Source: Candidatus Coprovivens sp. (GTDB taxonomy: Bacteria > Bacillota_I > Bacilli_A > RF39 > UBA660). From it: DNA of 64,000 nucleotides. The notes under the pieces were generated by a model, which was not told where the DNA came from, did no database searches, and saw nothing but the letters and a program-made list of their open reading frames with translations. Both the position numbers and the translations under genes were made by a program. Where the stretch lies: NCBI GenBank assembly GCA_051892935.1, contig JBJFGS010000011.1:1-64000 (forward strand), in the 5' to 3' direction. Positions 7,796-56,213 of this stretch are shown one piece after another (the stretch's first letter is position 1; each line of letters begins with the position of its first letter).

Positions 7796-10700
7796 TTATT
7801 TCATATATTCAAGAATAGTATATTCATATCCAGTATCAGAATCTTTATAGAATGTAACTTCATAATTATATTCAACTTGTGAAGTAATATCTGGTTTAGC
7901 ATTAGTAGAACCAGTTATAATACCATCATAGTAATTAAAGTAACCCTTTTCTTTTTTAACTCCTATACCTTTAGTAGTACCTACAGCCGTAATACTAGGA
8001 TCGGTAATAGACACATTAGCTCTACTAGTACCATAAGTAGGATCACTTGGTTCTGTTTCAACACCTATAGTAACATTACCATCTTTCATATAAATACCAT
8101 AACTATTAGTAGCATTATTAGCTATTATACTTCCTGATTCCATTACAACCTTAGATGATGCATTATAATTATAAACACCATATGCTGTAGCAACATTATT
8201 AACTTTAATTGCACTATCAGATAAGAACACATTCCCTCCTTCATTAAATACACCAACATCTACGCCACTCGTTGTTAAATTTCCTATAGTTAACATTGTA
8301 TTATTAAGTTCTAAATTAGAATAATTATGAATAGAATGTGTTTCATAACTATAATTACTAGTTCTAGTAGTAATAATAGTACAATCATTAACAATCATAG
8401 TTCCACTATTACTAATCATCACCCATAGACTAGTCTTCGTAGTTGTACCACTAATATCCAATTCCGTAAAATTAATTGTTCCATAATTATAAATATAGCC
8501 TTCCACACTTCCTATACTATGAGATATTTTACCTAGAGAATTATTATTTGATAAAGTTCCTTTAATAATTACATTTTCCAAATTATAAACAGAAAGATTA
8601 GTATTGTATAAAGCAGTACCACTTGATATAACTGAAACATTTTTTACAACAGACTCTCTTACACCATTATCATATATTGCATATGTACTACCATTTATTG
8701 TTCCACTATCAATATTCATATTTCCTTTATTAGTAATAGCAGTATTAGTTGCATTAATATTTACATTATTTAAAAATAAATACCCTTCTAAATTATTTAC
8801 ACCATAAACAGAATCAATATTACTATTTTCAATATTTAAATTAGCATTAGCATTATTTTTAAATATATAATAACTACTAAATTGATCAAAATCTATACTA
8901 TTAATATACAAATTACCATTATTAACAAAAGAAGAATTTTCACCTGTTTTAATAATCTTAGATTGCTTCTCAGAAGTATTATTAATAGTAAGTCTTCCGT
9001 TATTGGTAAATATATGAGCACCAAGATTTAATATATAACCATCTAAATCAATTATTATATCCTTAGATAAATCAACTGAAATATTTTCATATATCTGAAC
9101 ATTATCTAAAAAGACTATTTTTTCACCATTATTTGCTTCAGAAATAGCATCAGTCAATTGTTTATATTTTACACCAGTAGTTTTATTCATAAATAAATCA
9201 GATACAGCACTTATATATGCAATTTCAAAAACATAATCATTAATGATTTCTGTTCCACTTGCTACCTTCATATCAGTTGGAATTGTAGTAATAGCACCTT
9301 TATAAGCATTAGTTTTTCCTTTTAAAATACCATCATAAAAATTTACTACTCCAGCATTAACATTTAATCCATAAGTTTCTCCAATAATAACTGGAACATC
9401 ATTTTTAATTGTTAAGTTATTTTCGCCAAGAGTCAAAGTATTAGTTGTTGAATTTGAATAAATTCCATTTGCTTCGCTAGATATTATTTCAGCATTATTA
9501 ATAGTTATCCTACTATATTCATCTAAATAAATACCAGTTTTTTGAGAATTTATAATAGTCTTGTTATCTGCATCTCCAATCTTAGCATTAACATAATAAA
9601 TAGATGAAGAAGTATAATAATATCCATCCAAATATACACCATAATTACCTGCAGTTAAAGTTCCACCTATAATATTTACTGACCTTGATGAACGATTATT
9701 TAAAGAACAATAAAAAGCATCAGTTTGAGAAATAATATCAGTATTTAATAAATTTACATTACTAAGAGAGGAATAGATTCCAGTTGAATCAGAAATTATA
9801 TTACTATCATCAGAAGCAATTGTACCATAGTAATGATAAATTCCTGTACCAGAAGAATTAATAGTCGTTTTATAAATATCAGATAAAACATTTGCATTAG
9901 TAGTATTTGAATAAATTCCATATGCATATTTCTTATAGCTATTACAATTAGTTGCATCACATGTACGAGTAGCAGTAACACTACTTTCACTCATATTAAG
10001 AGTTAAATTATTAAGAATGCCATATGCATAGTAACTTGAGTTAACAGAAGTATCAACTATTATGTTACTATTATTAACATTGAAAAGTCCAACATTATAT
10101 ATACCATAAGCATCATCACCTGTTGAAGAAACTTCTAAATCAGTATTGTTCATTTCAACAGTACCAGCATTATTATATATTCCATATGAAACTCCAGAAT
10201 ATTTGTTCTTTATAATACTATTATTTATTATTAGATTTGCATCAACACCACTATTACTAATTACATAATAATTAGTACTTGATTCATAGAATCCATTATC
10301 AATTATCATTTCAGAATAATTTTTAAAAATGTTTGATTTCGTATTAAAAATCTTACCAGTCTTTTCAGTACTGCTATCTTTAACAATTAATGTACCATTA
10401 TTAATAATACTCTGAGTAGTATTTAAAGTAAAACCATTCAAATCTAAAGTAATTATTTTATCATTCGGAATAGTTGCAGCTGAACCAACACTAGCAGTTT
10501 TTATAACTTTAATGGTTCCTTCACTTTCAATATTTCTTATGGCAATATCAAAAGAATTATATTCAACACCATCAACTTCCAAGAAAGCATCCTGTTCATC
10601 AATATATTTACATTCGTAGTCATAATCATCAATAGCTTTATAAATAGTTTTAATAACAGTAGCTTCAGGTATAGAAGTAACAGATCCCAAAAAAGCATTT

Positions 10701-13700
10701 ATTTTTCCACCAACAATACCATCATAAAAATTAAAAGTTCCAACATTAACATTGATACCATATGTATTTCCAAAAATTGATGGACTATCTTGTTCAACAC
10801 TTAAATTATTTTCACCAATTGTCAAAGTATTAGTTGTTGAATTTGAATAAATTCCATTTGCTTCGCTAGATATTATTTCAGCATTATTAATAGTTATCCT
10901 ACTATATTCATCTAAATAAATACCAGTTTTTTGAGAATTTATAATAGTCTTGTTATCTGCATCTCCAATCTTAGCATTAACATAATAAATAGATGAAGAA
11001 GTATAATAATATCCATCCAAATATACACCATAATTACCTGCAGTTAAAGTTCCACCTATAATATTTACTGACCTTGATGAACGATTATTTAAAGAACAAT
11101 AAAAAGCATCAGTTTGAGAAATAATATCAGTATTTAATAAATTTACATTACTAAGAGAGGAATAGATTCCAGTTGAATCAGAAATTATATTACTATCATC
11201 AGAAGCAATTGTACCATAGTAATGATAAATTCCTGTACCAGAAGAATTAATAGTCGTTTTATAAATATCAGATAAAACATTTGCATTAGTAGTATTTGAA
11301 TAAATTCCATATGCATATTTCTTATAGCTATTACAATTAGTTGCATCACATGTACGAGTTGATGTAATACTTCCACCATTCATATTAAAAGTCATTAAAT
11401 TAAATATTCCATATGAATAATGATTTGAATTAACAGATGTATCAACTAATATATTACTATTGTTAACATTAAAAAGACCAACATTATATATTCCATAAAC
11501 ATCATCACCTGTTGAGGTAACTTCTAAATCAGTATTATTTATTTCAACAGTACCAGCAGTATTATATATTCCATATGATACAGATGAAAAACTATTTTTC
11601 AATTTACTATTATTAATTGTAAGAATAGCATCAACACCGGTATTATAAAATATATATTTAGAAGATGCAGCTTCATATATACCATTTTCGATTGTCATAT
11701 TAGAATAATTATAAAATAAATTAGTTCTATTATTAAATATTTTTCCAGTCTGTTCTACACTACTATCTTTAACAATTAATGTACCATAATTAATAAATCT
11801 TTGTGAAGTATTTAAAGTATATCCATTTAAATCAACAGTAATATTTTTTTCTTTAGGAATTGTAATTGAAGAACCAACACTAACACTTTTAATAACCTTA
11901 ATTGTTCCCTCTTGTTCTATATCTCTTATTGCTAAATCAAAAGAATTATATTCTACACCATTTACTTCCAAAAAATTTTCTTGAGATTGAATAAATTTAC
12001 TTTCATATTCATAATTATCAATAACTTCATAATTTGTACTAACTATTGAAGCAGATGGTATAGCAGTTACTGAACCTTTTATAGCGTTAGTTTTACCTTT
12101 TATTAAACCATCATAAAAATTTAAAGAACCAGCGTTAACATTAACGCCATAAGTCTCACCCATAACAAGAGGACTTACTTGACTTATATTTAAATCGTTT
12201 TCTCCAATAGTTAAAGTATTAGTTTCAGCATATAAATAAACACCATTACTATTAGATGATTTAATATCAGCATTTAATATATTAGTGTTTGTATAATCAT
12301 TAAGATAAATGCCCGTACTATTTGAATTAATAACTGTCTTATTATCTTTATCTCCAATTTTAGCATTAACATAATAAACAGATGAAGAAGTATAATAATA
12401 TCCATCCAAATATACACCATAATTACCTGCAGTTAAAGTTCCACCTATAATATTTACTGACCTTGATGAACGATTATTTAAAGAACAATAAAAGGCATCA
12501 GTTTGGGAAGTAATATCAGTATTTAATAAATTTACATTGCTAAAAGAAGAATATATTCCAGAAGACCCAGATATTATATTACTTTCCTCAACATTGACTG
12601 TACCATAATAATGATAAATACCAGTACCAGAAGAATTTATTTTTGCTTTATTAAGACCAGTCAAAATGCTAGAATTTGACGAATTTGAATAAATCCCATA
12701 AGCATACTTCTGATAACTTGAACAATCAACATTATTAACACAAGTATGAGTTACTTTTATCTCCCCACCATTCATATTTAATACAGAAATATTTTGGATA
12801 CCATAAACATAAGCATAACCATTTTGTACAATCTCAACATCAATAATTCCACTATTAATAGTTAATGTTCCACTATTATAAACACCAGTAAGGCTTTCAG
12901 TTTTTGACATTTTAACATTAGCACCATCTATAACTAATGTTTTAGTATTATAAATACCTTCATAATTACCACTAGTTAATTTAGCTTCCTTACTAGAATT
13001 ATTATAAAACGCATAACTATTTGCCTTAAAATACGTATTTTCATCTGCATTAATCGTTCCATCATTATTATAAATTGCATAACCAGATTTAGCTTTTACA
13101 ACAGAATTAGTTGCATTAATTATTCCATTATTAGTTATAACATTAATAGTATCATTAGTTTCAATTGTTGCATCATTAAGATTTAATATACCATTATTTA
13201 CTACTGTTATAGCAGGAATTATTCTGCCTTTTTCATCACTAGTATCACGTATTATAAATGTACCATTATTTTTAACATCAGTACCTGTCGTAATATTATA
13301 ACCATTAATATCAAAGACAATAGTAACATTCTTATCAATTGTAAGTTTATAAGCAGCTTCAAAATCTCTTACAGCATAAATATCAAAACCAGAATACTTA
13401 GCAGTATTAATAGAATCTTGTAAATTAAAATAATAAATTTCTCCATTAACAATAGTTTTAGAAACAGCTCTATCAATATTATTTTGACTAATTAAATAAG
13501 CTTTTTGACAATCTTTTTCGCCATTATGATCAACAAACGTTGCATAATCAACAGGAGTAGCATGAACACTACCATTAATAGTTACATCACCTTCAATATA
13601 ACCATCATAAAAATAGAAAGTACCATACTGTTCAATACCAACAGTAGTACCAATTATAGCAACACTATCTTGAGAAACATTTGGCTTAGCATCATCGTTT

Positions 13701-15199
13701 TTATCATTTACACCTAAAGTTAATATACCTGTATTAGAAACAGCTATCCCATTAGTATTTTCAATAATACCATTATCAATTACAATATCACCTTTATTTA
13801 CTAACTTACCAACTACTTTATGTCCATTTAAATCTAATTTAACTTTCTTTTCATTAGTAAAAGACTCATCAACATCCTTTAAAACAACAACAGTTTGTCC
13901 ATCTTTTACTTCAACTAAAGCCCTTTGAATTGTTTGATAGTACCTATTACTCTCAGGAATTTTAGCTACAATATCTTCTTCTCTTATCCATTCTGCTGAA
14001 ACTTCAATATCCTTTTTACCCATAGTTACAACATCATCTTTTAAATAGCCTTCATCTTCATTTTCATTCCAAGCCACAAACAAGTAAGAAGTCCTAACAG
14101 GATCTTTTAATTCATATCTTTCTCCTTCATGTAATCTAACTTCAAAAGTACTTTCATTTTCGTATAATCCACCATTAGGATTAATAGTTAAAGCATAAGT
14201 AGGATGTTCTTTCCACACCGCTTCCAATCTAATATCTTCAACTACAGAAATAGTACTTTCCATATATTGAATTTCATCATTATATGTCCAATATTTAAAA
14301 TCAAAGTATTCCCTATATACATCACTTAAATCAATCTTAGTATTGTATAAAACTAATGCTTTATAAGGCACATCTACACCATTAAATAAACCACCATTAG
14401 GATCTATTTCAATAGTATATGTCTTATTAGGTATTTTACCAAAATTAATTAATCCTGTAATAGTTAGTGAATCTTGTTCCACAACCTCATCAGCAAATAC
14501 GCAATTAAATAAAGTCGTACCTAATATAAATAAAATTATAATAATTGTTTTTTTGTTTTTTTTCTTTACAAAATATAATAATAGTATTCCAGAAATTAAA
14601 AGAGCAAAGAATATAACTACATCTGAATAAGTGTTAGGATTCTTCACATCTTCCTCTCTATCAGTATCATTACCATTTTCATTTGAATTATTGCCATTAT
14701 TACCAGAGTTATTATTACCTGAATTAGGGTTGTTTGGAGAATTTGAACTACTTCCACCACCATTTATTTCTCCACCAGAAATAAGATTAGTTTTACTATA
14801 TTTTAATTCTAATTGAAAATTATTTGTATCATTAAGTTCTCCAATATCATTAGATTTTATAGTAAGTAACATTATTCTACTACTATTAGCTTCTATAATA
14901 TTATCTACTTCTAAACTACTATAAGAGTATTCCAAATATTCAACATCTGGATTACTTAAATTGATTTCATCTATTTTTACATTAGTATCACTAGTATTTT
15001 GGATAGTAACATAATATGAAATCTCTTGTTCTTTATCTGTTAATGTTAAATTAAAATCTTCCACTCCTGAAGGATTATTAACTAATATTTGTTGACTAGT
15101 ATCATAATTAGGAACTACACTTTTTAAAATTAATTCATTTTCTGCACTAACCAAAAATGGTATAAACAATAAAAATAAAAATAATATAAACTTTTTCAT
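7796..15199 (-). CDS. giant (2467 aa) surface adhesin-like protein with InlB B-repeats, beta-helix repeats and an internal sorting signal followed by a second signal peptide
   Basis: Signal peptide ending VSA; NPNTYSD-TM-KKKNKK-hydrophobic-VFA at aa ~187-236; IDPNGG...W repeats; YGIYN/NFYDG beta-helix repeats; no C-terminal anchor. Confidence 0.8.
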   Translation of the reverse strand: MKKFILFLFLLFIPFLVSAENELILKSVVPNYDTSQQILVNNPSGVEDFNLTLTDKEQEISYYVTIQNTSDTNVKIDEINLSNPDVEYLEYSYSSLEVDNIIEANSSRIMLLTIKSNDIGELNDTNNFQLELKYSKTNLISGGEINGGGSSSNSPNNPNSGNNNSGNNGNNSNENGNDTDREEDVKNPNTYSDVVIFFALLISGILLLYFVKKKNKKTIIIILFILGTTLFNCVFADEVVEQDSLTITGLINFGKIPNKTYTIEIDPNGGLFNGVDVPYKALVLYNTKIDLSDVYREYFDFKYWTYNDEIQYMESTISVVEDIRLEAVWKEHPTYALTINPNGGLYENESTFEVRLHEGERYELKDPVRTSYLFVAWNENEDEGYLKDDVVTMGKKDIEVSAEWIREEDIVAKIPESNRYYQTIQRALVEVKDGQTVVVLKDVDESFTNEKKVKLDLNGHKVVGKLVNKGDIVIDNGIIENTNGIAVSNTGILTLGVNDKNDDAKPNVSQDSVAIIGTTVGIEQYGTFYFYDGYIEGDVTINGSVHATPVDYATFVDHNGEKDCQKAYLISQNNIDRAVSKTIVNGEIYYFNLQDSINTAKYSGFDIYAVRDFEAAYKLTIDKNVTIVFDINGYNITTGTDVKNNGTFIIRDTSDEKGRIIPAITVVNNGILNLNDATIETNDTINVITNNGIINATNSVVKAKSGYAIYNNDGTINADENTYFKANSYAFYNNSSKEAKLTSGNYEGIYNTKTLVIDGANVKMSKTESLTGVYNSGTLTINSGIIDVEIVQNGYAYVYGIQNISVLNMNGGEIKVTHTCVNNVDCSSYQKYAYGIYSNSSNSSILTGLNKAKINSSGTGIYHYYGTVNVEESNIISGSSGIYSSFSNVNLLNTDITSQTDAFYCSLNNRSSRSVNIIGGTLTAGNYGVYLDGYYYTSSSVYYVNAKIGDKDNKTVINSNSTGIYLNDYTNTNILNADIKSSNSNGVYLYAETNTLTIGENDLNISQVSPLVMGETYGVNVNAGSLNFYDGLIKGKTNAIKGSVTAIPSASIVSTNYEVIDNYEYESKFIQSQENFLEVNGVEYNSFDLAIRDIEQEGTIKVIKSVSVGSSITIPKEKNITVDLNGYTLNTSQRFINYGTLIVKDSSVEQTGKIFNNRTNLFYNYSNMTIENGIYEAASSKYIFYNTGVDAILTINNSKLKNSFSSVSYGIYNTAGTVEINNTDLEVTSTGDDVYGIYNVGLFNVNNSNILVDTSVNSNHYSYGIFNLMTFNMNGGSITSTRTCDATNCNSYKKYAYGIYSNTTNANVLSDIYKTTINSSGTGIYHYYGTIASDDSNIISDSTGIYSSLSNVNLLNTDIISQTDAFYCSLNNRSSRSVNIIGGTLTAGNYGVYLDGYYYTSSSIYYVNAKIGDADNKTIINSQKTGIYLDEYSRITINNAEIISSEANGIYSNSTTNTLTIGENNLSVEQDSPSIFGNTYGINVNVGTFNFYDGIVGGKINAFLGSVTSIPEATVIKTIYKAIDDYDYECKYIDEQDAFLEVDGVEYNSFDIAIRNIESEGTIKVIKTASVGSAATIPNDKIITLDLNGFTLNTTQSIINNGTLIVKDSSTEKTGKIFNTKSNIFKNYSEMIIDNGFYESSTNYYVISNSGVDANLIINNSIIKNKYSGVSYGIYNNAGTVEMNNTDLEVSSTGDDAYGIYNVGLFNVNNSNIIVDTSVNSSYYAYGILNNLTLNMSESSVTATRTCDATNCNSYKKYAYGIYSNTTNANVLSDIYKTTINSSGTGIYHYYGTIASDDSNIISDSTGIYSSLSNVNLLNTDIISQTDAFYCSLNNRSSRSVNIIGGTLTAGNYGVYLDGYYYTSSSIYYVNAKIGDADNKTIINSQKTGIYLDEYSRITINNAEIISSEANGIYSNSTTNTLTLGENNLTIKNDVPVIIGETYGLNVNAGVVNFYDGILKGKTNAYKGAITTIPTDMKVASGTEIINDYVFEIAYISAVSDLFMNKTTGVKYKQLTDAISEANNGEKIVFLDNVQIYENISVDLSKDIIIDLDGYILNLGAHIFTNNGRLTINNTSEKQSKIIKTGENSSFVNNGNLYINSIDFDQFSSYYIFKNNANANLNIENSNIDSVYGVNNLEGYLFLNNVNINATNTAITNKGNMNIDSGTINGSTYAIYDNGVRESVVKNVSVISSGTALYNTNLSVYNLENVIIKGTLSNNNSLGKISHSIGSVEGYIYNYGTINFTELDISGTTTKTSLWVMISNSGTMIVNDCTIITTRTSNYSYETHSIHNYSNLELNNTMLTIGNLTTSGVDVGVFNEGGNVFLSDSAIKVNNVATAYGVYNYNASSKVVMESGSIIANNATNSYGIYMKDGNVTIGVETEPSDPTYGTSRANVSITDPSITAVGTTKGIGVKKEKGYFNYYDGIITGSTNAKPDITSQVEYNYEVTFYKDSDTGYEYTILEYMK
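9432..12540. repeat. intragenic tandem repeat, period 1389 bp (463 aa), about 3 units
   Basis: 9432-9970 reads identical to 10821-11359; a near-identical block recurs at ~12351-12538 at the same 1389-bp offset (FYCSLNNRSSRSVNIIGGTLTAGNYGVYLDGYYYTSSS occurs three times). Confidence 0.9.
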
Positions 15200-15287
15200 A
15201 ACAACAACTCTCTCTATCTTCTTAAGTATATCATAATATAGTTATACATCAAACAAAAAGAAGATTTCTCTTCTTTTTCAATAATAA

Positions 15288-15806
15288 CTATTCAACATTT
15301 CCTATCTTAGTAAATGGGAATAAAACTAAACTAGTTACACCTTTAATTTGTGTTTCTTTCATAGGGCCTAACTCTTCACTATCTAAAGAATCTTCTCTAT
15401 TGTCTCCTAAAACAAAATATTCATCATCTGCTAATGTTATTTTTTCAATATTTCCAGTAATACCAATACTATAACTTTCATCTTGTCTTTTACCATTAAC
15501 ATAAATAACTCCATTCTCACAAGAAATAGTTTCTCCTGGTAAAGCAATTACTCTTTTTATAATATCTTCTGTTTTTATATCAACTACTACAATATCGAAT
15601 CTATTTATTTTAGATGTCTTATTAAGAATCATTATTTCTCCACCATCTAATGTAGGTTTCATAGATTGTCCACTAACCATAATTGGCGTAAATAAATAAG
15701 TTCTAATCAAAACTACAACAATCAAAATAATTACATATGGTACTAATTCTTTAATTACTTTTAATAAAGTATTCTTATTATTTTTTTCTTCCATTTCATC
15801 CACCAC
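15288..15806 (-). CDS. lepB: signal peptidase I
   Basis: VSGQSMKPTL (Ser), IKRVIALPGE (Lys), GDNREDSLDS; downstream of rplS. True start may be 15794. Confidence 0.93.
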   Translation of the reverse strand: MVDEMEEKNNKNTLLKVIKELVPYVIILIVVVLIRTYLFTPIMVSGQSMKPTLDGGEIMILNKTSKINRFDIVVVDIKTEDIIKRVIALPGETISCENGVIYVNGKRQDESYSIGITGNIEKITLADDEYFVLGDNREDSLDSEELGPMKETQIKGVTSLVLFPFTKIGNVE

Positions 15807-15925
15807 AATAATTCTATCATTTTTTTTACAATGATTAAAGATAATTTTAAGATAATAACTTTGAAAATCGTTTATATATTTTATTTGACATATTATGATA
15901 TAATTTTTATATAAGGAGTATTAGT

Positions 15926-16507
15926 ATGAAAAATAAAAAGATTAAAATAATAGAATCAATAATATTAATAGTCATTCTTATTAGTTTAATAATAATTATT
16001 ATATTTGCTAAAATAACTTTATCAAAAGAACCTAAAAAGAGTAATACAAACGAAATAAAGGATTACTCTGTAACAAAAATAATAAAATATAATTCTAACA
16101 TATCAGAAAGTTTTATCTACCAAATACCATATCAAGATAGAATTATTACAGATCAAAGTGAGTTTACTAATTACATAACCGCTACAGATAATATAATAAA
16201 TATATATACAGAAAAAATACTTATTTATTATCTAGATTTAACAGCTGATGAAAAAACAATAGTAAAAAACTTCTGTAATACATATGACATAATAGAATAT
16301 GAATATAAATTTCAATGTACATTTAACAAAAACATCTTATCTATATCAAACCAATATAATATTAAAGATTTAAATACCAACAAAATTAAAAACAATCACA
16401 ATATAGAGATACCAATTCCAATTGAAAAAAATACTCGTCTAAATGATTATATAGAGTATTTAAATAAAAATATGATATCAACTATTGAAGTAAATGAAAT
16501 AAAATAA
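15926..16507 (+). CDS. hypothetical membrane-anchored protein
   Basis: RBS AAGGAG; N-terminal TM; TGATATAAT extended -10 upstream. Confidence 0.7.
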   Translation: MKNKKIKIIESIILIVILISLIIIIIFAKITLSKEPKKSNTNEIKDYSVTKIIKYNSNISESFIYQIPYQDRIITDQSEFTNYITATDNIINIYTEKILIYYLDLTADEKTIVKNFCNTYDIIEYEYKFQCTFNKNILSISNQYNIKDLNTNKIKNNHNIEIPIPIEKNTRLNDYIEYLNKNMISTIEVNEIK

Positions 16508-16534
16508 AAAGAAAGAAATTAATTTCTTTCTTTT
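16506..16534. terminator. bidirectional terminator between convergent genes
   Basis: Palindrome AAAAGAAAGAAAT-TA-ATTTCTTTCTTTT overlapping the rplS stop. Confidence 0.55.
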
Positions 16535-16860
16535 ACTTTGTATTCTTTTTTCATTCCTTTTAAGAAGTTTAATTTAGCTCTTCTTACAACACCCTTCTTA
16601 ACTACTACTATTTTATCAATAGTTGGTGAGTTAACTGGGAATACTCTTGTTACACCAATACCATAAGATTTTTTACGTACTGAGAAAGTTTCAGAAACAG
16701 AACCACCTTTTTTAGCTACTACAAGTCCTTCAAAAGCTTGGATTCTTTCTTTCTTACCTTCTTTAACCCATACATCTACTCTAACAGTATCTCCAACACG
16801 GAATTCAGGAATGTCTTTTCTTACATGCTTCTCATTAATTTTATCAACTAAATTTGCCAT
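16519..16860 (-). CDS. rplS: 50S ribosomal protein L19
   Basis: PEFRVGDTVRV...EGKKERIQAFEG...GVVRRAKL; start ATG 16860. Confidence 0.97.
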   Translation of the reverse strand: MANLVDKINEKHVRKDIPEFRVGDTVRVDVWVKEGKKERIQAFEGLVVAKKGGSVSETFSVRKKSYGIGVTRVFPVNSPTIDKIVVVKKGVVRRAKLNFLKGMKKEYKVKERN

Positions 16861-16892
16861 ATTATACATCCTTTCATACTATATTTACTTAC

Positions 16893-16934
16893 CGGAAAAT
16901 CATAAATTATAAATATTTCAGCGGATTTTCTTCC
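16893..16934 (-). ncRNA. putative L19 leader (ribosomal-protein autoregulatory RNA)
   Basis: In the rplS 5' UTR after TGTTATAAT: AAAATC-CGCTG...TATGATTTT stem with a CCGCUG/AUGA internal loop, resembling the Firmicutes L19_leader. Confidence 0.6.
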
Positions 16935-17012
16935 TTGAAGCAATTAAGATTATAACAAAAAAAGAATACATTTGCAACAAATATATTCTTTTTTATTATA
17001 AATATATATTAA

Positions 17013-17462
17013 TTATCTTCCTCTACCATGAGTTTTTTCTTCTTGTTGTTCTAAATAAATGGCTTTTTGTTTAATCTTAACTTGTTTTACTCTCATTTCA
17101 TTTTCTATTATTCTTAACTTTTTTAAAAATAATTGTTCTTTTTCGTAATTTAAGAATTTTTGATATCTATTGAGTAAAACTTGTCTAACTAATTCAACTT
17201 CATCTAATACAATTTCAGCATCAGATTCATCTGCATCAGGATCATTAATTACTTTTAAAGCTAAAGCAACTAATTGTTTAAACGATTTATCAAATTTCAT
17301 CGATAATATCTTATCAATCATTACTCTATCAACTATTGTAACCTCGTTTACTTTAATGTAATTTCCATTTCCAGATTTAGGTTTAAATTTATAACCATCT
17401 AATTCATGAATAGAAACTACACTTTCATCACAATGTTTTTTATTAACTAAGTAACTAGCCAT
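17013..17462 (-). CDS. hypothetical protein
   Basis: 149-aa helical ORF with RBS GAAGGTG, between trmD and rplS. Confidence 0.7.
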   Translation of the reverse strand: MASYLVNKKHCDESVVSIHELDGYKFKPKSGNGNYIKVNEVTIVDRVMIDKILSMKFDKSFKQLVALALKVINDPDADESDAEIVLDEVELVRQVLLNRYQKFLNYEKEQLFLKKLRIIENEMRVKQVKIKQKAIYLEQQEEKTHGRGR

Positions 17463-17482
17463 TTAATCACCTTCTTAACCAT

Positions 17483-18151
17483 CTAATCTAATAAATCAGG
17501 TCTTCTCTCTTGCGTTCTTTTTAATCTCATTTCATTTCGCCAAGCTTTTATATTTTCATGGTTACCGCTTATTAATACATCTGGGACTTTCATTCCCATA
17601 AATTCTTGTGGTTTTGTATAAGTAGGATAATCAAGAAGTTTATCATTAAAAGATTCACTATCTAAACTAGTATTAGTAATTACCCCATCTAATAATCTAA
17701 TTATGCTATCACTTATAACCATTGCAGGCAACTCTCCACCCGTTAAAACATAATCACCAATACTTATTTCCATATCACAAAGAGTTCTTATCCTTTCATC
17801 AAACCCCTCATAATGACCACAAACAAATATTAAATGTTTTCCTTTACTAAGCTCAACTGCCATATTTTGTTTATATTGTACACCATCTGGTGTCATAAGA
17901 ATTACTTTTGCATCAGGACTATCCTTCTTAGCATCCATAATAGCATCATACAATGGTTCTATACGTAAAACCATTCCTCCTCCCCCTCCATAAGGAGTAT
18001 CATCAACTTGATTATTATTTAACTTAGAATACTTTCTAAAATCTATAACATTTATTGAAACTAATCCCTTATTAATTGCTCTTTTTATAATAGATTCATT
18101 AATAAAGCCCTCAAACATATTAGGAAATAAAGTTAATATATCTATTTTCAT
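17483..18151 (-). CDS. trmD: tRNA (guanine-N1)-methyltransferase
   Basis: VDDTPYGGGGGM, CGHYEGFDER, SIGDYVLTGGE. Confidence 0.97.
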   Translation of the reverse strand: MKIDILTLFPNMFEGFINESIIKRAINKGLVSINVIDFRKYSKLNNNQVDDTPYGGGGGMVLRIEPLYDAIMDAKKDSPDAKVILMTPDGVQYKQNMAVELSKGKHLIFVCGHYEGFDERIRTLCDMEISIGDYVLTGGELPAMVISDSIIRLLDGVITNTSLDSESFNDKLLDYPTYTKPQEFMGMKVPDVLISGNHENIKAWRNEMRLKRTQERRPDLLD

Positions 18152-18639
18152 AATATCAATCCCTTAGCATTTTCAGTTTCGATAACTTTCTTTTCTAAAT
18201 CAACCATTTTTATGAAATTGCCATTTTTTGGAATATAAAAATTATTTTCACCCGAAATACATAATAATATATTAATTCCATTATACACAATTTTTGAAAC
18301 TTTACCAAGTATTTCACCATTTTCTATAATAGATAATCCAACTAAATCATCAAGTAAATACTCATCTTTTGTTAACATTAAATCTTCTCTTTTTACATAT
18401 ACATTTAATTTAACATAATTTAGAACTTGATTAATATTATCATAGCCTTCAAAAGTAACCATATCAAATTCTTTGTGAACTCTATATGAAGTTATTTTTT
18501 CTGGAACATGTCCTTCTCCAATATATAAAGTAAAACCTGGCTTAAAGACAACATTTTTTTTATCAAAATTACTTTTTATTCTAAGTTCACCTTTAATACC
18601 ATGAGTATTAACAATTTTTCCAATATAAACAAAATCCAT
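18148..18639 (-). CDS. rimM: ribosome maturation factor RimM
   Basis: IGKIVNTHGIKGE; ATGA overlap with trmD. Confidence 0.95.
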   Translation of the reverse strand: MDFVYIGKIVNTHGIKGELRIKSNFDKKNVVFKPGFTLYIGEGHVPEKITSYRVHKEFDMVTFEGYDNINQVLNYVKLNVYVKREDLMLTKDEYLLDDLVGLSIIENGEILGKVSKIVYNGINILLCISGENNFYIPKNGNFIKMVDLEKKVIETENAKGLIL

Positions 18640-18644
18640 TTTTA

Positions 18645-18989
18645 CTATCTCCTCTTTCTTTTTTTCATTCCATCACCATAAGAAACAATACTAGCTTTAA
18701 CAGAATAACATATTTCATCATCTCTTACTCTTATATCAATACCTTCTATATCATAACCATTTACTGACATAGCAAATAAAACTAAATCACAAAAATCTTT
18801 TACTCTAAGTGGTTTATAATGTTTTTCCAAAGTATCATTATTATTCTTTTCATAAAGTGCCCAAAATACCGGTTTATCATCATCTACAATTGTACTATTT
18901 ATAATTACATTATCAGGATAACCAATAAGCATTAAACCTTCTCTAGCAAAACTAAATATTTTTTCTTCATTAAAATTAATTTTTTCCAT
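18645..18989 (-). CDS. hypothetical protein
   Basis: ORF packed between the TrmH-family gene and rimM; start uncertain (18989 or 19007). Confidence 0.6.
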   Translation of the reverse strand: MEKINFNEEKIFSFAREGLMLIGYPDNVIINSTIVDDDKPVFWALYEKNNNDTLEKHYKPLRVKDFCDLVLFAMSVNGYDIEGIDIRVRDDEICYSVKASIVSYGDGMKKRKRR

Positions 18990-19012
18990 AACCAAAACCC
19001 ACTTCAAACAAA

Positions 19013-20374: not shown

Positions 20375-20454
20375 AAAATCACCTTTACCTATAATATTTT
20401 AACATAAAAAGAATGTATAAAAAAGAAAGATTATTTTTTACAAAAAAAGAAGTA

Positions 20455-22191: not shown

Positions 22192-22206
22192 CTTTTCCCC
22201 TCCAAT

Positions 22207-22339: not shown

Positions 22340-22386
22340 TTTCTCACTCCTCTCTCTAAAAAATTCTCCATTAATATATCATCAAT

Positions 22387-22421
22387 AAAAAAAGATGTCA
22401 ACCTTTTTGGGTTAACATCTT
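22387..22421 (-). terminator. rho-independent terminator
   Basis: AAGATGTTAACC-CAAAA-AGGTTGACATCTT followed by a T run, directly after the DUF285 gene stop. Confidence 0.7.
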
Positions 22422-24644
22422 ATTCTTTAATTAATACAACACAATCAGGAGCTTGTTTTTCTATAAATGCTTTAGCCTTTTCATCTTTTACATAGATTGT
22501 AGAACCACTTATGCCCTTAAACATGTCAGTAACATCAGCTTCTTCATTCCAATCGCTTCCACTTAAATCGAATACCGAAGGATAAACTTTACCATCAGTT
22601 GTAGAAAACATTAAAGAATAGTTAATAGAAGTACCAAAATTAACGCCAGATAAATCAAGTTCATTAACATAATTATAGTTAAACATACCTCTAGAATTTT
22701 GCAAACTACTTAAATTCCAATTTTTTAGATTTAGTTTAGCAGAAAATAATGAAAACATACCAGTAGCTTTTTCTAACTTTTCAACATTCCAATTAGATAA
22801 ATCTAATTCTTCAATTGGATTAGTAATATTTTTTGAAGGGACTAACGAACCAAACATATAATTTGCAGACGAAAGATTAGATGTATCCCAATAATATATA
22901 TCACTTAAATCAGAAACACCAACTCCCCGAAACATAGAATCCATGTTTATTGCTGAACTAGTATCAAAATCATCTAAACCAATAATTGTTTTAACCCTAC
23001 TATTTCCAATAAACATATTATCAAAATATTCAACATTCTGAGTATCTAAACCAGTAAGATCAATAGTAGTTATATTAGGATATTCATACAATAAACCAAA
23101 TATACTATGATAAAACATCCCTGTCATTCTTTTTACATTACTAGTATCCCAGTCTTTAAAATAATCAATAGTAACTTCAACTGGTGAAAGATATCTAAAA
23201 AAAGCAAACATACGTGTCATATCTTCTACCTTAGAAGTATCAAAATCATATATATCTAAATTTAATTCTCTAGAATTAGAACCAAAATATAGAAACATCG
23301 AACTCATATTAGTTACATTACTAGTATCAAAATTAGACAAATCCAAATTAATAGTTTCTGAAAAATAACCGGCTTCCCAAAACATAAAAGACATATCTGT
23401 AACATTACTTGTATCAAACATCGATAAATCTAGTTCTAAGTCTTCAGTATATTCAGCAAAACCAGCAAACATGCCACGCATACTTGTAACATTGCTCGTT
23501 TCAAACCCAGATAAATCATATTTAATCATATCTACTTGATTTCCAATACCAGTTAACATATATTCCATGTTTGTTGTTTTATTAGAAAAAAACTTTGACA
23601 TATCTAAATACTTAATGTTAAAAAAATCATTATCACTATTATTATCTTCTGCATTATAAGATGAAAATTGATAAGATGCATCTTTTGGGACAACTACACC
23701 ACCATCTTGACCAATTAAAAATAAATAACTTTCTTCTTCAGTATCTGCTAAATAAACACCTAATATAACATCACCATTTTGTTGTTCAGAAACATCATAA
23801 GTATTCTGTAGAGAAAAAGAAACATCATCAATTAAATAAGTATCACTAAGTTCCTTATAATCTTCCATAACTAAATAATGAACAAAATCCCTATCACCAT
23901 ATAATTTCCAATCGATACAAAAATCACCATCATAATCTAAATTAGCACAACTAGGAGCTAAATTAGATAGAATATAAGAAATATCAGTAGTAATATCAAT
24001 ATGTTGAACATCACTAGCTTTAACATGACTAAAATGAGAATAACCTAAAACTAAAAACAATAAAATAATCAAATATAATATTTTATTTTTTCTATATACA
24101 ATAATAAAAAGAAGAGAACATAAAATAAAAGCAATTACCACTAATACAATAATATCAAATGTATCAGGATTAATATAAGAAACATTTTCAAATAATAACT
24201 CTGCCTTAGCCTTTTCATTAAAATTTTCAATAGATAAAATATAATCAGGTTGATCAGCTTTAATAGAGTATAAAAAAGTAATAGTATCTCCTGGAGCAAT
24301 AATCTTATTCTTATCATAATTAAGTACTTCATACTTTAAATGATAATCATTATCTAACCCCTTAACATCAAAAAGCTTTTTATAATTATCCGAATCATTA
24401 GTAAGTGTAATTTGATACACTAAAGAAGCATCAGCATCATATATTACTCCTTCTGTAGAAATAATATTATCATTAATATCATTTTTTAATATTTTAGAAC
24501 CACCAGTACCACCTACAAATTCAACATCCTTTACAATAATGTCACTTTCTGCTTTTACCAACATAATTGGAATAAACAAAATAAAAGCTAAAAAACTAAA
24601 ACATTACTTTTAATAAGTTTAACACCATTATTCTTAAAATACAT
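22420..24644 (-). CDS. BspA/DUF285-repeat surface protein with an internal sorting signal and second signal peptide; 5' end frameshifted
   Basis: LSxFDTSNVTxMxxMF repeats; NPDTFD-TM-RKNK-hydrophobic-VKA. The RBS-preceded ATG at 24644 is 1 nt out of frame with the 22420..24579 ORF. Confidence 0.8.
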
Positions 24645-24716
24645 AAAAAACACTTCCTATATTATCTTTATTATACAATAGTATTATAACACATTTTAAA
24701 AATCAATCATATCAAT

Positions 24717-26046: not shown

Positions 26047-27309
26047 TTAAAATTCAATTTTTTTCTTTTTTACAACAATAACTATTGAACCAATTAATAA
26101 TAATATAAACAGCATAACAGCAATATCTTCAGTTGAAGGATTTACTATGCTATTATCTTTTTCAGAAGGAACATCTTCTATTTCAGAATCCATCATAACA
26201 TCTGAATTACCTAATCCAACTAAATTATAATATAATTTATTTACATCATAAATATCATAACTTAAATAAGTAGGACATGTAAAATCATTAATATAAGAAG
26301 TATCACATATTCCATCAAAGTAACTCTTTAAGATATATAATTCTTTAGCATCCTTATCGAATAAAAAGTCTAAATATCTATAGTTTTGCTTGATTTCTTG
26401 AACTAAATTACCTTCTAAATCAAGTATTTCTATTTTATCATTATACAAACCAAGTTTAGTATCTATTTGCATTTCCTTAATTAAAATTATACAATCTCCA
26501 ACAAAATTTACTTTTTTTATTTTTTCATTTAAAGCATTTTTAATTTCAAATTCTAAGTTACCATCATAATAATATTGCAAAGAATTGTTATTATAAACCA
26601 CAAACTTTTTATCACTAACATCATACACCTTGAAAACTAAATTATTTTCAATTTTATAATCTAATTCAGGAAAATACTTTACAACATTCTCTTTATTACA
26701 ATCCATATATTCAACAGAAGTTTTATCTTCGGAAAGTTTAATCATATCACAAGAAAGATTATCATATGTTACATCAGAAGAAGATGAATTATTTAAAAAC
26801 AAAAAATAAGCATTCCCCTCAAACTCATTGAAATAATAATTATTATTATAATTAAAATAAAAAGAATAAACCTCATCTTTTAATAATTCTTTATCAAGTA
26901 TTATTTCAGAAACAACATCAAAATTATTATCATAAACGTTCAAAGAAAAAGCCTGTTTCTCAAAATAGCGACTACTATAGTGATAATTTGATATACCATA
27001 TATATATTCATCATTAACGAAAAAATAATGATCGTTAATTATAGTATTATCAAATTCACCATCACTTTTTTTATAACCAAGAAAAGAATGAATATCAGTA
27101 CGGTCATCAATATATCTAAAGCCAGTCAAAACACTATCATTAAAGTTAATTATTTTGCCTCCATTAGAAATAAGATAAGAAACAGGCTCATCATTAATAT
27201 CAATAGTTTCTTTTTTTATAAAAACATCCTTTCCATCAGCATACACAAAAGAAGAAAAAATAAAGAATAACGCAAAAAACAAAGACAACTTAAAGTACTT
27301 CACAAACAC
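26047..27309 (-). CDS. secreted protein with C-terminal NPSTED-TM-KKKK sorting signal
   Basis: Signal peptide ending VYA; C-terminus NPSTEDIAVMLFILLLIGSIVIVVKKKKIEF. Confidence 0.75.
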   Translation of the reverse strand: MFVKYFKLSLFFALFFIFSSFVYADGKDVFIKKETIDINDEPVSYLISNGGKIINFNDSVLTGFRYIDDRTDIHSFLGYKKSDGEFDNTIINDHYFFVNDEYIYGISNYHYSSRYFEKQAFSLNVYDNNFDVVSEIILDKELLKDEVYSFYFNYNNNYYFNEFEGNAYFLFLNNSSSSDVTYDNLSCDMIKLSEDKTSVEYMDCNKENVVKYFPELDYKIENNLVFKVYDVSDKKFVVYNNNSLQYYYDGNLEFEIKNALNEKIKKVNFVGDCIILIKEMQIDTKLGLYNDKIEILDLEGNLVQEIKQNYRYLDFLFDKDAKELYILKSYFDGICDTSYINDFTCPTYLSYDIYDVNKLYYNLVGLGNSDVMMDSEIEDVPSEKDNSIVNPSTEDIAVMLFILLLIGSIVIVVKKKKIEF

Positions 27310-56203: not shown

Positions 56204-56213
56204 ATTAACCCTC

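What the first reader, a model, noticed from the sequence alone, without database searches (positions are those of the whole stretch)
14438..15199. Anchor-plus-passenger polyprotein: internal NPxT sorting signal followed immediately by a second signal peptide (2467-aa adhesin)
Seen: signal peptide (VSA), ~120-aa beta domain, Asn/Gly linker, NPNTYSD, TM, KKKNKK, then TIIIILFILGTTLFNCVFA (a second type-I-like signal), then DEVVEQDSLTITGLINFG and a >2200-aa adhesin with no C-terminal anchor. The gene at 26047 uses the same NPxTxD-TM-KKKK module at its normal C-terminal position. Known: sortase signals are C-terminal, and TasA/CalY fibres and chaperone-usher pili join subunits by donor-strand complementation. 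Inference: one ORF yields two exported proteins, a small wall- or membrane-anchored base and an SPase-released adhesin. The adhesin's N-terminal alternating strand (LTITGLINF) may complete the base's fold and tether it. I know of no description of such a self-assembling display system.
Basis: partly seen in the sequence, partly recalled or inferred. Interest (0 to 1): 0.85.

Follow-up and report, generated by a model that had tools for sequence, protein, structure and literature searches.

The report
Split-anchor module for surface display
One gene seems to make two exported pieces, a small wall-anchored base and a giant adhesin that plugs a strand into that base, and the same front-end module heads thousands of unannotated gut-bacterial surface proteins.

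Summary
ORF 7796-15199(-), 2467 aa, reads: signal peptide, ~120-aa beta domain, Asn/Gly linker, NPNTYSD, TM1, KKKNKK, a second hydrophobic segment ending VFA, an alternating strand, then a >2200-aa passenger with no C-terminal anchor.

It is not an artefact. The genome holds three such genes. A profile of the module finds 2838 protein clusters, almost always at the N-terminus and with varied passengers. NPxT, Pro-6/Val-3/Ala-1 after TM2, and a 16-residue beta-hairpin after that site are conserved.

The N-domain is homologous to small secreted proteins encoded next to SipW-type peptidase genes, but it lacks their N-terminal strand. AlphaFold places the post-site strand as the last strand of the N-domain sandwich.

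Best reading (about 0.5): class B sortase anchors the base, signal peptidase frees the passenger, and strand complementation tethers it. None of these steps is shown experimentally, and the multimer test returned no verdict.

Streptococcal Zmp/IgA1 proteases have an N-terminal LPXTG, two hydrophobic segments and a second peptidase site. Donor-strand assembly combined with sortase anchoring was reported for the enterococcal Elr pilus in 2026. This is a new variant of a known kind.

The parts
15143..15199 (-). SP1: N-terminal signal peptide, aa 1-19, ending P(-6)..V(-3)-S-A(-1)
   Evidence: Family logo for this site: Pro-6 in 113, Val-3 in 133 and Ala-1 in 145 of 147.
14780..15142 (-). Base (N-) domain, aa 20-140: an Ig-like/PapD-like beta sandwich, proposed strand acceptor
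   Evidence: AF2 strands at 23-137, with pLDDT 61-91 by ten-residue block (75-91 from residue 51). hhalign to subunits of SipW-type operons: probability 98.3%, E 1.6e-14. VIA Z up to 11.3. No Pfam or NCBIfam family matches.
14642..14779 (-). Asn/Gly/Ser-rich low-complexity linker, aa 141-186, presumed wall-spanning spacer
   Evidence: AF2 pLDDT is below 50 here. The linker is much shorter in other family members.
14621..14641 (-). NPNTYSD: internal sortase-type motif, aa 187-193
   Evidence: N187, P188 and T190 are invariant in 14 of 14 modules. NPxT occurs in 145 of 150 representatives. A class B sortase is present in the genome.
14567..14620 (-). TM1, aa 194-211: hydrophobic segment of the sorting signal
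   Evidence: AF2 helix at 193-213.
14549..14566 (-). KKKNKK cytoplasmic loop, aa 212-217. It serves both as the positive tail of the sorting signal and as the n-region of the second signal. It is encoded by A8 and A7 runs (+ strand T runs 14556-14563 and 14548-14554).
14492..14548 (-). TM2/SP2, aa 218-236: second signal-peptide-like segment ending V-F-A, with the predicted signal-peptidase cut after A236
   Evidence: Family logo: Pro-6 in 116, Val/Ile-3 in 132 and Ala-1 in 140 of 147. AF2 helix at 216-231. Cleavage is inferred, not shown.
14432..14491 (-). Post-SP2 strand, aa 237-256 (contains SLTITGLINF): proposed donor strand at the passenger's new N-terminus
   Evidence: AF2 strand at 243-253, with block pLDDT 79. 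The VIA alignments of the top 50 entries shown run from about residue 20 (35-38 in seven integrin rows) to about residue 255 of the model. A conserved hairpin occupies +4..+14 in 147 representatives.
7796..14431 (-). Passenger, aa 257-2467 plus stop: a giant repeat-rich putative adhesin with no C-terminal anchor, containing three tandem 1389-nt units
   Evidence: No Pfam or NCBIfam family matches.
22420..24579 (-). Second gene with the same module: N-domain, NPDTFD (24154-24171), TM1, YRKNK, SP2 ending HVKA (24016-24081), strand (23962-24015), and a PARCEL/DUF285-repeat passenger. Its signal peptide is out of frame at an A6 run (24590-24595).
26047..26142 (-). Comparison: a canonical C-terminal NPSTED-TM-KKKKIEF sorting signal on a neighbouring 420-aa protein
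   Evidence: It is one of 10 C-terminal NPxTx(x)[DE] signals in the genome.
15288..15806 (-). Type I signal peptidase gene directly upstream. This is context only and probably housekeeping.
   Evidence: TIGR02227, 126.7 bits. It follows rimM-trmD-rplS. It is one of 3 full copies in the genome. The adjacency is not kept next to the G024 orthologue.

Best explanation
The first ~256 residues are a self-contained N-terminal display module that turns one polypeptide into two exported pieces.

Shown from sequence:
- SP1 takes the N-domain across the membrane.
- NPNT + TM1 + KKKNKK is a complete sortase sorting signal that stops transfer.
- The same lysines act as the positive n-region of TM2, which re-initiates export of the passenger. 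This topology fits the positive-inside rule.

Inferred:
1. The class B sortase cuts after Thr190 and links the ~170-residue base to peptidoglycan.
2. A type I signal peptidase (LepB-type or SipW-type) cuts after Ala236. This frees the 2231-residue passenger and leaves a TM1-loop-TM2 remnant in the membrane.
3. The passenger's new N-terminal strand (aa ~243-253) inserts as the last strand of the base's Ig-like sandwich. It takes the place of the N-terminal strand that the base's stand-alone homologues carry. The adhesin is thus held on the wall by strand complementation. In the roughly 55% of family members with paired cysteines, a disulfide may add to the hold.

The module is a portable N-terminal anchor that leaves the passenger's C-terminus free.
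For: Architecture and recurrence:
- There are three genes with the module in this genome.
- The 260-aa query matches 11 of 24 other genomes of the same genus and 0 of 16 from other families.
- The profile finds 2838 clusters at E<=1e-3 and 775 at E<=1e-30. In 146 of the top 150 the match starts within the first 5 residues.
- Passengers differ: DUF285 in 19 of 91, Cna_B in 1, and most have no family.

Sortase step:
- NPxT occurs in 145 of 150 representatives. The next residue is Gly in 69 and Ser in 33 of 147.
- The genome has 10 ordinary C-terminal NPxTx(x)[DE] signals.
- It also has a class B sortase at 170.4 bits against a cut-off of 153.75.

Peptidase step:
- After TM2, Pro-6 occurs in 116, Val/Ile-3 in 132 and Ala-1 in 140 of 147.
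- This matches the SP1 logo of the same proteins: Pro-6 in 113, Val-3 in 133, Ala-1 in 145.
- A crude set of other signal peptides in this genome has Pro-6 in only 15 of 190.
- The distance from NPxT to the site has a median of 51 aa. In IgA1 protease the cut lies 56 residues downstream of LPXTG (PMC9637739 passage).

Tether:
- Positions +4..+14 after the site form a conserved alternating hairpin, while +17 onward is unconserved.
- AF2 makes 243-253 a strand (block pLDDT 79). The only other strands in the model are those of the N-domain.
- The VIA alignments of the top 50 entries shown, to complete MSP/PapD-like domains, run from about residue 20 (35-38 in seven integrin rows) to about residue 255 of the model. 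For example, 2e6j aligns 109 of its 112 residues, and WxLIP 9i1y scores Z 11.3.
- hhalign aligns module 22-120 to positions 48-147 of the stand-alone subunits. This starts just after their N-terminal strand (probability 98.3%, E 1.6e-14).
- SP2 plus strand aligns in register with the subunits' signal plus N-terminal strand, but only weakly (probability 46%).
- Cysteines just after the SP1 site and just after the SP2 site co-occur: 81 proteins have both, 60 have neither, and 6 are discordant, of 147.
Against: - Nothing is shown experimentally. There is no evidence of cleavage at either site, of wall linkage, or of binding.
- The only structural support is one single-chain AF2 model built from a 14-sequence alignment (mean pLDDT 64, pTM 0.50). 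I could not inspect its coordinates or PAE. The multimer test with controls and a deeper-alignment model were not obtained.
- The cysteine co-occurrence rests on few events: 6 and 8 state changes on the tree, and 2 supported independent pairs.
- The MI signal is hub-like, which means a subfamily effect.
- P0001 itself has no such cysteines, and its strand is preceded by 6 extra residues relative to the family consensus.
- Ile at -3 (39 of 147) is a weaker signal-peptidase residue.
- Class B sortase is common in the family (27 of 34 genomes), so its presence does not discriminate.
- Classical sorting signals are C-terminal. Sortase action on an internal signal is documented only for Zmp proteins.
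Confidence: 0.5

Rival explanations
1. TM2 is not cleaved. The protein is either a two-TM hairpin with both ends outside or, after the sortase cut, a passenger held in the membrane by an N-terminal signal-anchor. The base is then a separate wall protein.
For: TM2 is a full-length hydrophobic helix in the AF2 model (216-231). Ile at -3 in 39 of 147 is sub-optimal for cleavage. No cleavage data exist. P0126 is a relative whose protein ends after a second TM, with no VxA site and no hairpin.
Against: Ala-1 occurs in 140 of 147 and Pro-6 in 116 of 147, the same signature as the undoubtedly cleaved SP1. An uncleaved anchor would not be expected to conserve this. A conserved strand begins exactly at +1..+4. 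Zmp proteins with the same topology are reported to be cut after the second segment.
Confidence: 0.17
2. Both cuts happen but the two products do not stay together. The passenger is released, or it binds something else such as wall polymers or another protein. The conserved hairpin is then only the start of a common first passenger element.
For: Binding is not demonstrated. The AF2 evidence is a single chain in cis. The MI coupling is hub-like.
Against: The hairpin is conserved in front of unrelated passengers, and sequence diverges from +17. The base domain lacks a strand that its homologues have. The cysteines pair in their occurrence. A giant adhesin with no other anchor motif would be lost to the medium.
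Confidence: 0.15
3. Base and passenger are the two end-caps of a TasA-like donor-strand-exchange fibre. The wall-anchored acceptor-only base takes the donor strand of the small subunits from the SipW-type operons. These polymerise, and the donor-only passenger caps the far end as the tip adhesin.
For: The genome has three operons encoding SipW-type peptidases. In two of them (contigs C47 and C31) the small homologous subunits carry a signal plus an N-terminal strand, and NPxT-anchored proteins lie nearby. The polarity fits: base is acceptor only, subunit is donor plus acceptor, passenger is donor only. P0001's SLTITG resembles the subunits' xLxIxG motif. There are weak hits to AbpX, TasA and BsaA.
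Against: The module genes are not next to these operons. Subunit polymerisation is only an analogy. The TasA-family hits are below threshold. The 1:1 cis pairing in the AF2 model needs no subunits.
Confidence: 0.12
4. Artefact: two adjacent genes (a small anchored protein and a secreted adhesin) were fused by an assembly or homopolymer error in the A8/A7 runs.
For: The junction is encoded by A8 and A7 runs, and a -1 slip would place a stop 9 residues after TM1. Homopolymer frameshifts do occur in these genes.
Against: There are 2838 clusters with the same continuous arrangement. The 84%-identical orthologue keeps the frame with different junction residues. An independent X2 contig shows no listed indel there. 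No start codon is available for a separate passenger gene.
Confidence: 0.01

Closest known systems
[quoted passage not shown]
   Same: [quoted passage not shown] The cut is reported 56 residues after the motif (PMC9637739 passage), against a median of 51 here. Surface retention depends on sortase (PMC13604702 passages).
   Different: There is no sequence relationship; no M26 or G5 domains are found. The motif here is NPxT, which is class-B-type from recalled knowledge, rather than LPXTG/SrtA. Here a folded ~120-aa domain sits before the motif and a conserved strand follows the second site, which suggests how the passenger is held. For Zmp I could not read the primary paper (Bender and Weiser 2006, not held). 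This family has many unrelated passengers.
Enterococcus faecalis Elr (WxL) pilus: donor-strand exchange plus sortase anchoring (bioRxiv 10.64898/2026.10.17.759780; abstract and sections 7, 9 and 14 read)
   Same: An incomplete Ig-like fold is completed by an N-terminal amphipathic strand of another chain. One component is sortase-anchored at the wall. An invariant attachment module carries variable adhesin payloads, mostly unannotated, LRR or beta-helix. The best structural match of my model is a WxL-interacting protein (9i1y_A, Z 11.3).
   Different: Elr parts are separate genes, with a membrane chaperone (DUF916/DUF3324). Its wall-anchored ElrB is donor-only and its tip adhesin is acceptor-only, at the C-terminus. 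Here the polarity is reversed and both partners come from one ORF. No WxL or DUF916 family hit was found.
TasA/TapA/SipW biofilm fibres of Bacillus subtilis, and the archaeal Abp pili
   Same: The N-terminal strand exposed by signal-peptidase cleavage completes the sandwich of the next subunit, and TapA's N-terminus can donate the first strand (PMC9674648 and PMC10151520 passages). The base domain's stand-alone homologues lie next to SipW-type peptidase genes.
   Different: Hits to TasA, BsaA and AbpX are below threshold (E 0.008-0.065). TasA is not sortase-anchored and is not made as a polyprotein.
Canonical class B sortase substrates (C-terminal NPxT-type sorting signals)
   Same: The motif, the hydrophobic segment and the basic tail are all present. 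The same genome has 10 ordinary C-terminal examples and a class B sortase.
   Different: The signal is internal, at about residue 190 of 2467, and is followed by a second export signal.
Chaperone-usher pili of Gram-negative bacteria (donor-strand complementation)
   Same: A missing last strand of an Ig-like fold is supplied in trans. Pilus chaperones (EcpB, YadV, FaeE, SafB) are among the structural matches, with Z 8.5-9.3.
   Different: This is a different envelope, with no usher or periplasmic chaperone, and no sequence relationship.

Membership tests
Sortase (class B type) sorting signal | NPxT-type motif | tested here: met
   NPNT at aa 187-190. It is invariant in 14 of 14 modules and present in 145 of 150 representatives. 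The link between this motif and class B sortases is recalled knowledge.
Sortase (class B type) sorting signal | Hydrophobic segment followed by a positively charged tail | tested here: met
   TM1 at aa 194-211, then KKKNKK.
Sortase (class B type) sorting signal | Located at the C-terminus of the substrate | tested here: not met
   2277 residues follow the motif (NPNT ends at aa 190 of 2467). Ten other proteins of the genome have it 3-10 residues from the end.
Sortase (class B type) sorting signal | Cognate sortase encoded in the genome | tested here: met
   TIGR03064 at 170.4 bits against a cut-off of 153.75, on contig C10. Which sortase acts on the signal is not testable here.
Sortase (class B type) sorting signal | Cleavage after Thr and linkage to peptidoglycan | not testable with these tools
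   This needs mass spectrometry of wall fragments.
Type I (Sec) signal peptide, applied to the second segment | Positive n-region, hydrophobic h-region, small residues at -3 and -1 | tested here: met
   KKKNKK, then TIIIILFILGTTLFN, then C-V-F-A. Family logo: Pro-6 in 116, Val/Ile-3 in 132 and Ala-1 in 140 of 147. No SignalP-type predictor was available.
Type I (Sec) signal peptide, applied to the second segment | N-terminal position in the precursor | tested here: not met
   The segment starts at aa 212.
Type I (Sec) signal peptide, applied to the second segment | Cleaved by signal peptidase | not testable with these tools
   Inferred only. The genome has 3 LepB-type and 3 SipW-type-domain genes.
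Zmp / M26 IgA1-protease family | Order of elements: signal peptide, sortase motif, two hydrophobic segments, second peptidase site | tested here: met
   compared with PMC3518915 passages. This is a likeness of architecture only.
Zmp / M26 IgA1-protease family | M26 metalloprotease domain (HExxH) and G5 domain | tested here: not met
   Pfam and NCBIfam report no such domain on the whole protein.
TasA / camelysin (Peptidase_M73) and SipW-dependent matrix proteins | Sequence match to the family models | tested here: not met
   The module has no hit. The stand-alone homologues score only below threshold: TasA E 0.042, BsaA E 0.008, AbpX E 0.031. The Atlas gives Peptidase_M73 on 33-39% of members of neighbouring clusters at scores 0.86-0.87, which is a lead only.
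TasA / camelysin (Peptidase_M73) and SipW-dependent matrix proteins | Encoded next to a SipW-type signal peptidase | tested here: inconclusive
   Met for the stand-alone homologues (L032, and own contigs C47 and C31). Not met for the module genes: the neighbouring peptidase of P0001 is LepB-type and in a housekeeping context.
TasA / camelysin (Peptidase_M73) and SipW-dependent matrix proteins | N-terminal donor strand that completes another subunit's sandwich | tested here: inconclusive
   The single-chain AF2 model places 243-253 in the base's sheet. No multimer verdict was obtained.
WxL pilus system (WxL domain, DUF916/DUF3324 chaperone) | WxL or DUF916 domain by sequence | tested here: not met
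   No Pfam or NCBIfam hit. There is only a fold likeness to WxLIP 9i1y_A: Z 11.3, rmsd 3.0, 121 residues aligned.

The most novel reading that the evidence does not exclude
The module is one half of a Gram-positive donor-strand fibre system written into a single gene. After two cuts, the sortase-anchored acceptor-only base and the donor-only adhesin become the proximal and distal caps of a fibre built from the small subunits of the SipW-type operons. With no subunits, they snap directly together. One ORF would then fix a 1:1 ratio of anchor to tip. The same logic, an internal sorting signal plus a second signal peptide plus strand complementation, could be the unexplained tether of the streptococcal Zmp/IgA1 proteases.
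Probability: 0.12. Interest if true: 0.85.

Novelty: new variant of a known kind. Interest (0 to 1): 0.66.

Why it matters
Sortases can fix only a C-terminus to the wall. This module suggests a general way to hang a protein by its N-terminus and leave its C-terminus free: split an Ig-like domain around a sorting signal and a second signal peptide, then let the two halves re-associate outside the cell.

The family is large and has no Pfam or NCBIfam model. It has at least 2838 clusters at 50% identity, and none of the 5 cluster look-ups carried a source name. It heads many surface proteins of poorly known, reduced-genome gut Bacilli, so it bears on how these uncultured bacteria attach to hosts.

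The module offers a testable mechanism for the long-known but poorly explained N-terminal LPXTG anchor of pneumococcal Zmp proteases. It extends the newly reported theme of donor-strand assembly combined with sortase anchoring. It could also serve as a compact surface-display cassette.

Tried and rejected
**Complex and structure jobs**
No verdict was obtained.

**Searches that gave little**
- The search for homologous proteins, near length: 1 weak hit of 1443 candidates.
- The search for related loci with A1: no conserved stretch to search with.
- The Atlas did not hold the window's sequence. For the homologue P0009 the nearest clusters are 'hypothetical'.
- PDB sequence search with the module profile: only spurious membrane-protein matches at E>1.
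- Foldseek against the PDB: generic Ig-like folds with TM-scores normalised to the target of at most 0.6.
- No RNA holder was listed for the stretch.
- Tandem Repeats Finder found nothing because the repeat period exceeds its limit; the repeats were found.

**Analyses that did not hold up**
- MI-APC coupling: the top 2 of 23085 pairs link the N-domain to the post-SP2 region, but one column pairs with many others. I read this as subfamily signal, not contact.
- Cysteine co-occurrence: the tree-corrected test has only 2 supported independent pairs, so it is a lead only.
- Class B sortase co-occurrence: 13 of 14 genomes with a module-profile hit have one, but so do 27 of 34 genomes of the family. 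It does not discriminate.

**Ideas dropped**
- The upstream signal peptidase as a dedicated partner: dropped because it is in the rimM-trmD-rplS-lepB context, is not syntenic in G024, and is one of 3 copies.
- Short 'passenger-less' relatives (P0006, P0047): they come from contigs of 2016 and 1133 nt and are probably truncated.
- An apparently split gene in G021: it is a frameshift inside the N-domain, not a natural split between base and passenger.

**Literature limits**
- Searches for an internal NPxT or internal sorting signal, or for this family, found only the Zmp literature.
- The search found the Elr, TasA and TapA papers.
- Bender and Weiser 2006 and Takenouchi-Ohkubo 2006 are not held.
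- Supplementary files were not consulted.

Full report
**1. The observation**

Window 7796-15199(-) is one 2467-codon ORF. Its first 256 residues read as follows:
- Signal peptide, aa 1-19, ending LVSA.
- Beta-rich domain, aa 20-140.
- Asn/Gly/Ser linker, aa 141-186.
- NPNTYSD, aa 187-193.
- Hydrophobic segment TM1, aa 194-211.
- KKKNKK, aa 212-217.
- Second hydrophobic segment, aa 218-236, ending NCVFA.
- DEVVEQDSLTITGLINFGKI, aa 237-256.

The remaining 2211 residues have no Pfam or NCBIfam family. They contain three tandem 1389-nt units and end without any anchor. The DNA shows no in-frame ATG, GTG or TTG between TM1 and the second segment.

**2. Not chance, not an artefact**

A strict pattern finds 12 NPxTx(x)[DE]-TM-basic signals in the 1.81-Mb genome. 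Ten lie 3-10 residues from a C-terminus, and two are internal: this gene and 22420-24579(-) in the same window. A relaxed pattern finds exactly 3 of 2718 ORFs, the third being contig C29:3933-5303, and all three share the N-domain.

An 84%-identical 2461-aa orthologue from another assembly keeps the junction in frame although its residues differ. A 17.6-kb contig from run X2 covers 14300-24693 and has no listed indel in 14300-15199. Ten of its 11 gaps are listed.

**3. A large modular family**

The 260-aa query matches 11 of 24 other genomes of the genus and 0 of 16 genomes from other families. A 14-sequence profile (A1) gave these results:
- It matches 12 of 34 genomes of the family, 1 of 10 and 1 of 28 genomes in two other families, and none elsewhere among 300 genomes of the class. 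Some of the weak matches are stand-alone relatives (see section 6).
- Against 1.84 billion representatives it finds 2838 clusters at E<=1e-3, 1746 at E<=1e-10 and 775 at E<=1e-30.
- In 146 of the best 150 the match starts within the first five residues.
- 149 of those 150 have xPxT followed by a TM: 145 NPxT, 3 VPxT and 1 IPxT, the last probably a mis-pick.

Passengers vary. DUF285/PARCEL repeats occur in 19 of 91, Cna_B in 1, and most have no family. Median passenger length is 191 aa, with a range of 8-2225.

No Pfam or NCBIfam model covers the module. None of the members read in the five cluster look-ups carries a source name, and the nearest Atlas clusters are 'hypothetical protein'. By a TrmD search, the lineage consists of uncultured gut 'Bacilli bacterium' MAGs.

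**4. The two processing sites**

*Sortase site.*
- N187, P188 and T190 are invariant in A1. The residue after NPxT is Gly in 69 and Ser in 33 of 147.
- The genome encodes a class C sortase next to LPxTG pilins, a small sortase, and a class B sortase (TIGR03064, 170.4 bits against a cut-off of 153.75) with a long N-terminal extension.
- That NPxT-type motifs go with class B sortases is recalled knowledge.
- Class B sortase is found in 27 of 34 genomes of the family, so its presence is compatible but not discriminating.

*Second site.*
- In 147 parsed representatives, Pro occupies -6 in 116, Val/Ile -3 in 132 and Ala -1 in 140.
- The true N-terminal signal peptide of the same proteins has the same c-region: Pro-6 in 113, Val-3 in 133, Ala-1 in 145.
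- A crude set of 190 other signal-peptide-like ORFs of this genome has Pro-6 in only 15 (the site calling there is rough).
- The basic loop between the two hydrophobic segments puts it in the cytoplasm by the positive-inside rule, so both the N-domain and the passenger face outward.

Cleavage at either site is inferred, not shown.

**5. The strand after the second site**

Positions +4..+8 and +12..+14 after the site alternate Ile/Val with polar residues, around an E/D-S/T-N/K turn. From +17 on nothing is conserved. The hairpin therefore belongs to the module, not to the passenger.

AlphaFold2 on aa 1-291 with A1 gave mean pLDDT 64 and pTM 0.50:
- Sandwich strands at 23-137, with block pLDDT 61-91 (75-91 from residue 51).
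- Helices at 193-213 and 216-231.
- One strand at 243-253, with block pLDDT 79.

The only other strands in the model are those of the N-domain. An exhaustive structural comparison found 45 chains with Z>=8. The alignments of the top 50 entries shown run from about residue 20 (35-38 in seven integrin rows) to about residue 255 of the model. Examples:
- WxL-interacting protein 9i1y_A: Z 11.3, rmsd 3.0, 121 residues aligned.
- PapD-like 2e6j: 109 of 112 residues aligned.
- MSP domain 6tqr_A: 122 of 126 residues aligned.
- Pilus chaperones EcpB, YadV, FaeE and SafB: Z 8.5-9.3.

So the model uses the post-site strand as the last strand of a complete Ig-like sandwich. I could not inspect coordinates or PAE.

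**6. Relatives that keep the strand at the other end**

Weaker profile hits are stand-alone secreted proteins of 165-230 aa. They occur in sister genera (loci L029, L030, L032, L034) and in this genome (C47:14423-14962 and C31:33164-33658). Their signal ends VGYA or VGYS, is followed by an xLxIxGxAxI strand, and then by WDVxFTNI.

These proteins lie beside genes that fuse a multi-TM domain to a SipW/archaeal-type signal peptidase. The example in L032 scores 87.7 bits on TIGR02228 against a cut-off of 51.85. The own genome has such genes on contigs C47, C31 and C24.

hhalign aligns module residues 22-120 to subunit positions 48-147, at probability 98.3% and E 1.6e-14. The module's domain is therefore homologous to the subunit core but begins just after the subunit's N-terminal strand.

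The module's SP2 plus strand aligns in register with the subunit's signal plus N-terminal strand. In that alignment P0001's DSLTITGLINF falls opposite TQLRLSGSAEI. The match is weak (probability 46%, E 2e-4) and is partly driven by hydrophobic composition.

The subunits give only sub-threshold matches to TasA (E 0.042), BsaA (E 0.008) and AbpX (E 0.031-0.065). In TasA fibres, the N-terminal strand left by SipW cleavage completes the next subunit's sandwich, and TapA's N-terminus can donate the first strand (PMC9674648 and PMC10151520 passages).

**7. A possible covalent lock**

A cysteine within 8 residues after the SP1 site and a cysteine within 6 residues after the SP2 site co-occur. Of 147 proteins, 81 have both, 60 have neither, and 6 are discordant. 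The N-domain has exactly one cysteine in 86 proteins and none in 60. This would fit an interchain disulfide between the two new N-termini.

On a tree of the N-domain the states change only 6 and 8 times, and only 2 well-supported independent pairs exist. Both are concordant, but the result is only a lead. P0001 has neither cysteine.

**8. Mechanism proposed**

Steps:
- SP1 exports the base.
- The sorting signal arrests it in the membrane.
- TM2 re-starts export of the passenger.
- Class B sortase links Thr190 to the wall.
- Signal peptidase cuts after Ala236.
- The freed N-terminal strand of the passenger completes the base's sandwich and holds the adhesin on the wall.

The parts and their conservation are shown. 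Both cuts, the wall linkage and the binding are inferred. I put this at about 0.5.

Rivals:
- An uncleaved TM2, giving a membrane-anchored passenger: 0.17.
- Both cuts but no tether: 0.15.
- Base and passenger as the end-caps of a fibre built from the SipW-operon subunits: 0.12.
- Artefact: 0.01.

**9. Comparison with what is known**

[quoted passage not shown] The cut is reported 56 residues after the motif (PMC9637739 passage), and their surface presence depends on sortase A (PMC13604702 passages). The primary paper, Bender and Weiser 2006, is not held.

*Elr/WxL pilus.* A preprint of October 2026 shows that the enterococcal Elr/WxL pilus combines donor-strand exchange with sortase anchoring, and that its tip adhesins are an invariant attachment module with variable payloads (abstract and sections 7, 9 and 14).

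*What differs here.*
- A different and much larger family with no sequence relation to either system.
- An NPxT motif.
- A folded acceptor domain placed before the internal sorting signal.
- A conserved donor-like strand after the second signal.
- Both partners encoded in one ORF.
- Polarity opposite to Elr: here the wall piece is the acceptor and the adhesin is the donor.

My literature searches found no description of this family or of this combination. The library lacks most subscription journals, and supplements were closed.

**10. What could not be done**

- The multimer prediction with controls never returned.
- The deeper-alignment monomer job failed.
- No signal-peptide predictor was available.
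- No RNA data were listed.

**Verdict**

The feature is real and conserved. It is a new variant of a known kind, with a well-motivated but unproven mechanism.

Noticed in passing
window 24579-24640 (A6 run at 24590-24595, + strand): The second module gene (22420-24579, minus strand) has its signal peptide split by a frameshift. An upstream ATG opens an 18-codon frame that is one base out of register at a T6 run on the coding strand. A related strain's contig (run X2) has one extra base in this run, which by my reading would join the two frames into a full signal peptide. This is either phase variation or an assembly error.
   Followed up: partly
window 14548-14563: The KKKNKK loop of the big gene is encoded by A8 and A7 runs. 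A -1 slip in either run would place a stop 9 residues after TM1. That would leave a normal C-terminally anchored base and no passenger. A +1 slip would stop after 20 residues. This could act as an on/off switch for the adhesin, but Lys codons in a 25% GC genome produce such runs anyway.
   Followed up: partly
own genome outside the window: C47:13756-17120, C31:31350-37108, C24:50644-53397: Three operons encode a signal peptidase domain fused to a larger protein (a multi-TM N-terminal part in C47 and C31; the SipW type was shown by model only for the L032 homologue). Each operon also encodes small secreted proteins (on C47 and C31 they share the base domain's core; the two on C24 were not compared). 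On C47 and C31 there is also an NPxT-anchored protein. This may be a sortase-anchored, TasA-like fibre system in a gut Bacilli lineage.
   Followed up: partly
own genome C10:~55421-56974 (locus L003:454-2007): The class B sortase is 518 aa long. It has an N-terminal extension of about 270 residues and a TM segment ahead of the catalytic domain. Similar long open frames (465-559 aa) occur in sister genera.
   Followed up: no
window 9279-12557: The passenger contains three tandem 1389-nt (463-aa) units. Stretches of 300 nt are 100% identical between two of the copies, which points to recent expansion or gene conversion.
   Followed up: partly
L121:988-1801 (G021:C16): A module gene in a sister genome is frameshifted inside its N-domain: the same heptapeptide appears in two overlapping frames. 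It lies directly upstream of a second, intact module gene, so module genes can occur in tandem.
   Followed up: partly
window 15288-19007: A conserved housekeeping block, rimM-trmD-(149-aa ORF)-rplS, on the minus strand, followed (after a plus-strand 193-aa ORF at 15926-16507) by lepB, sits between surface-protein genes. The whole window has a strongly negative GC skew, consistent with one replication arm carrying genes on the minus strand.
   Followed up: no
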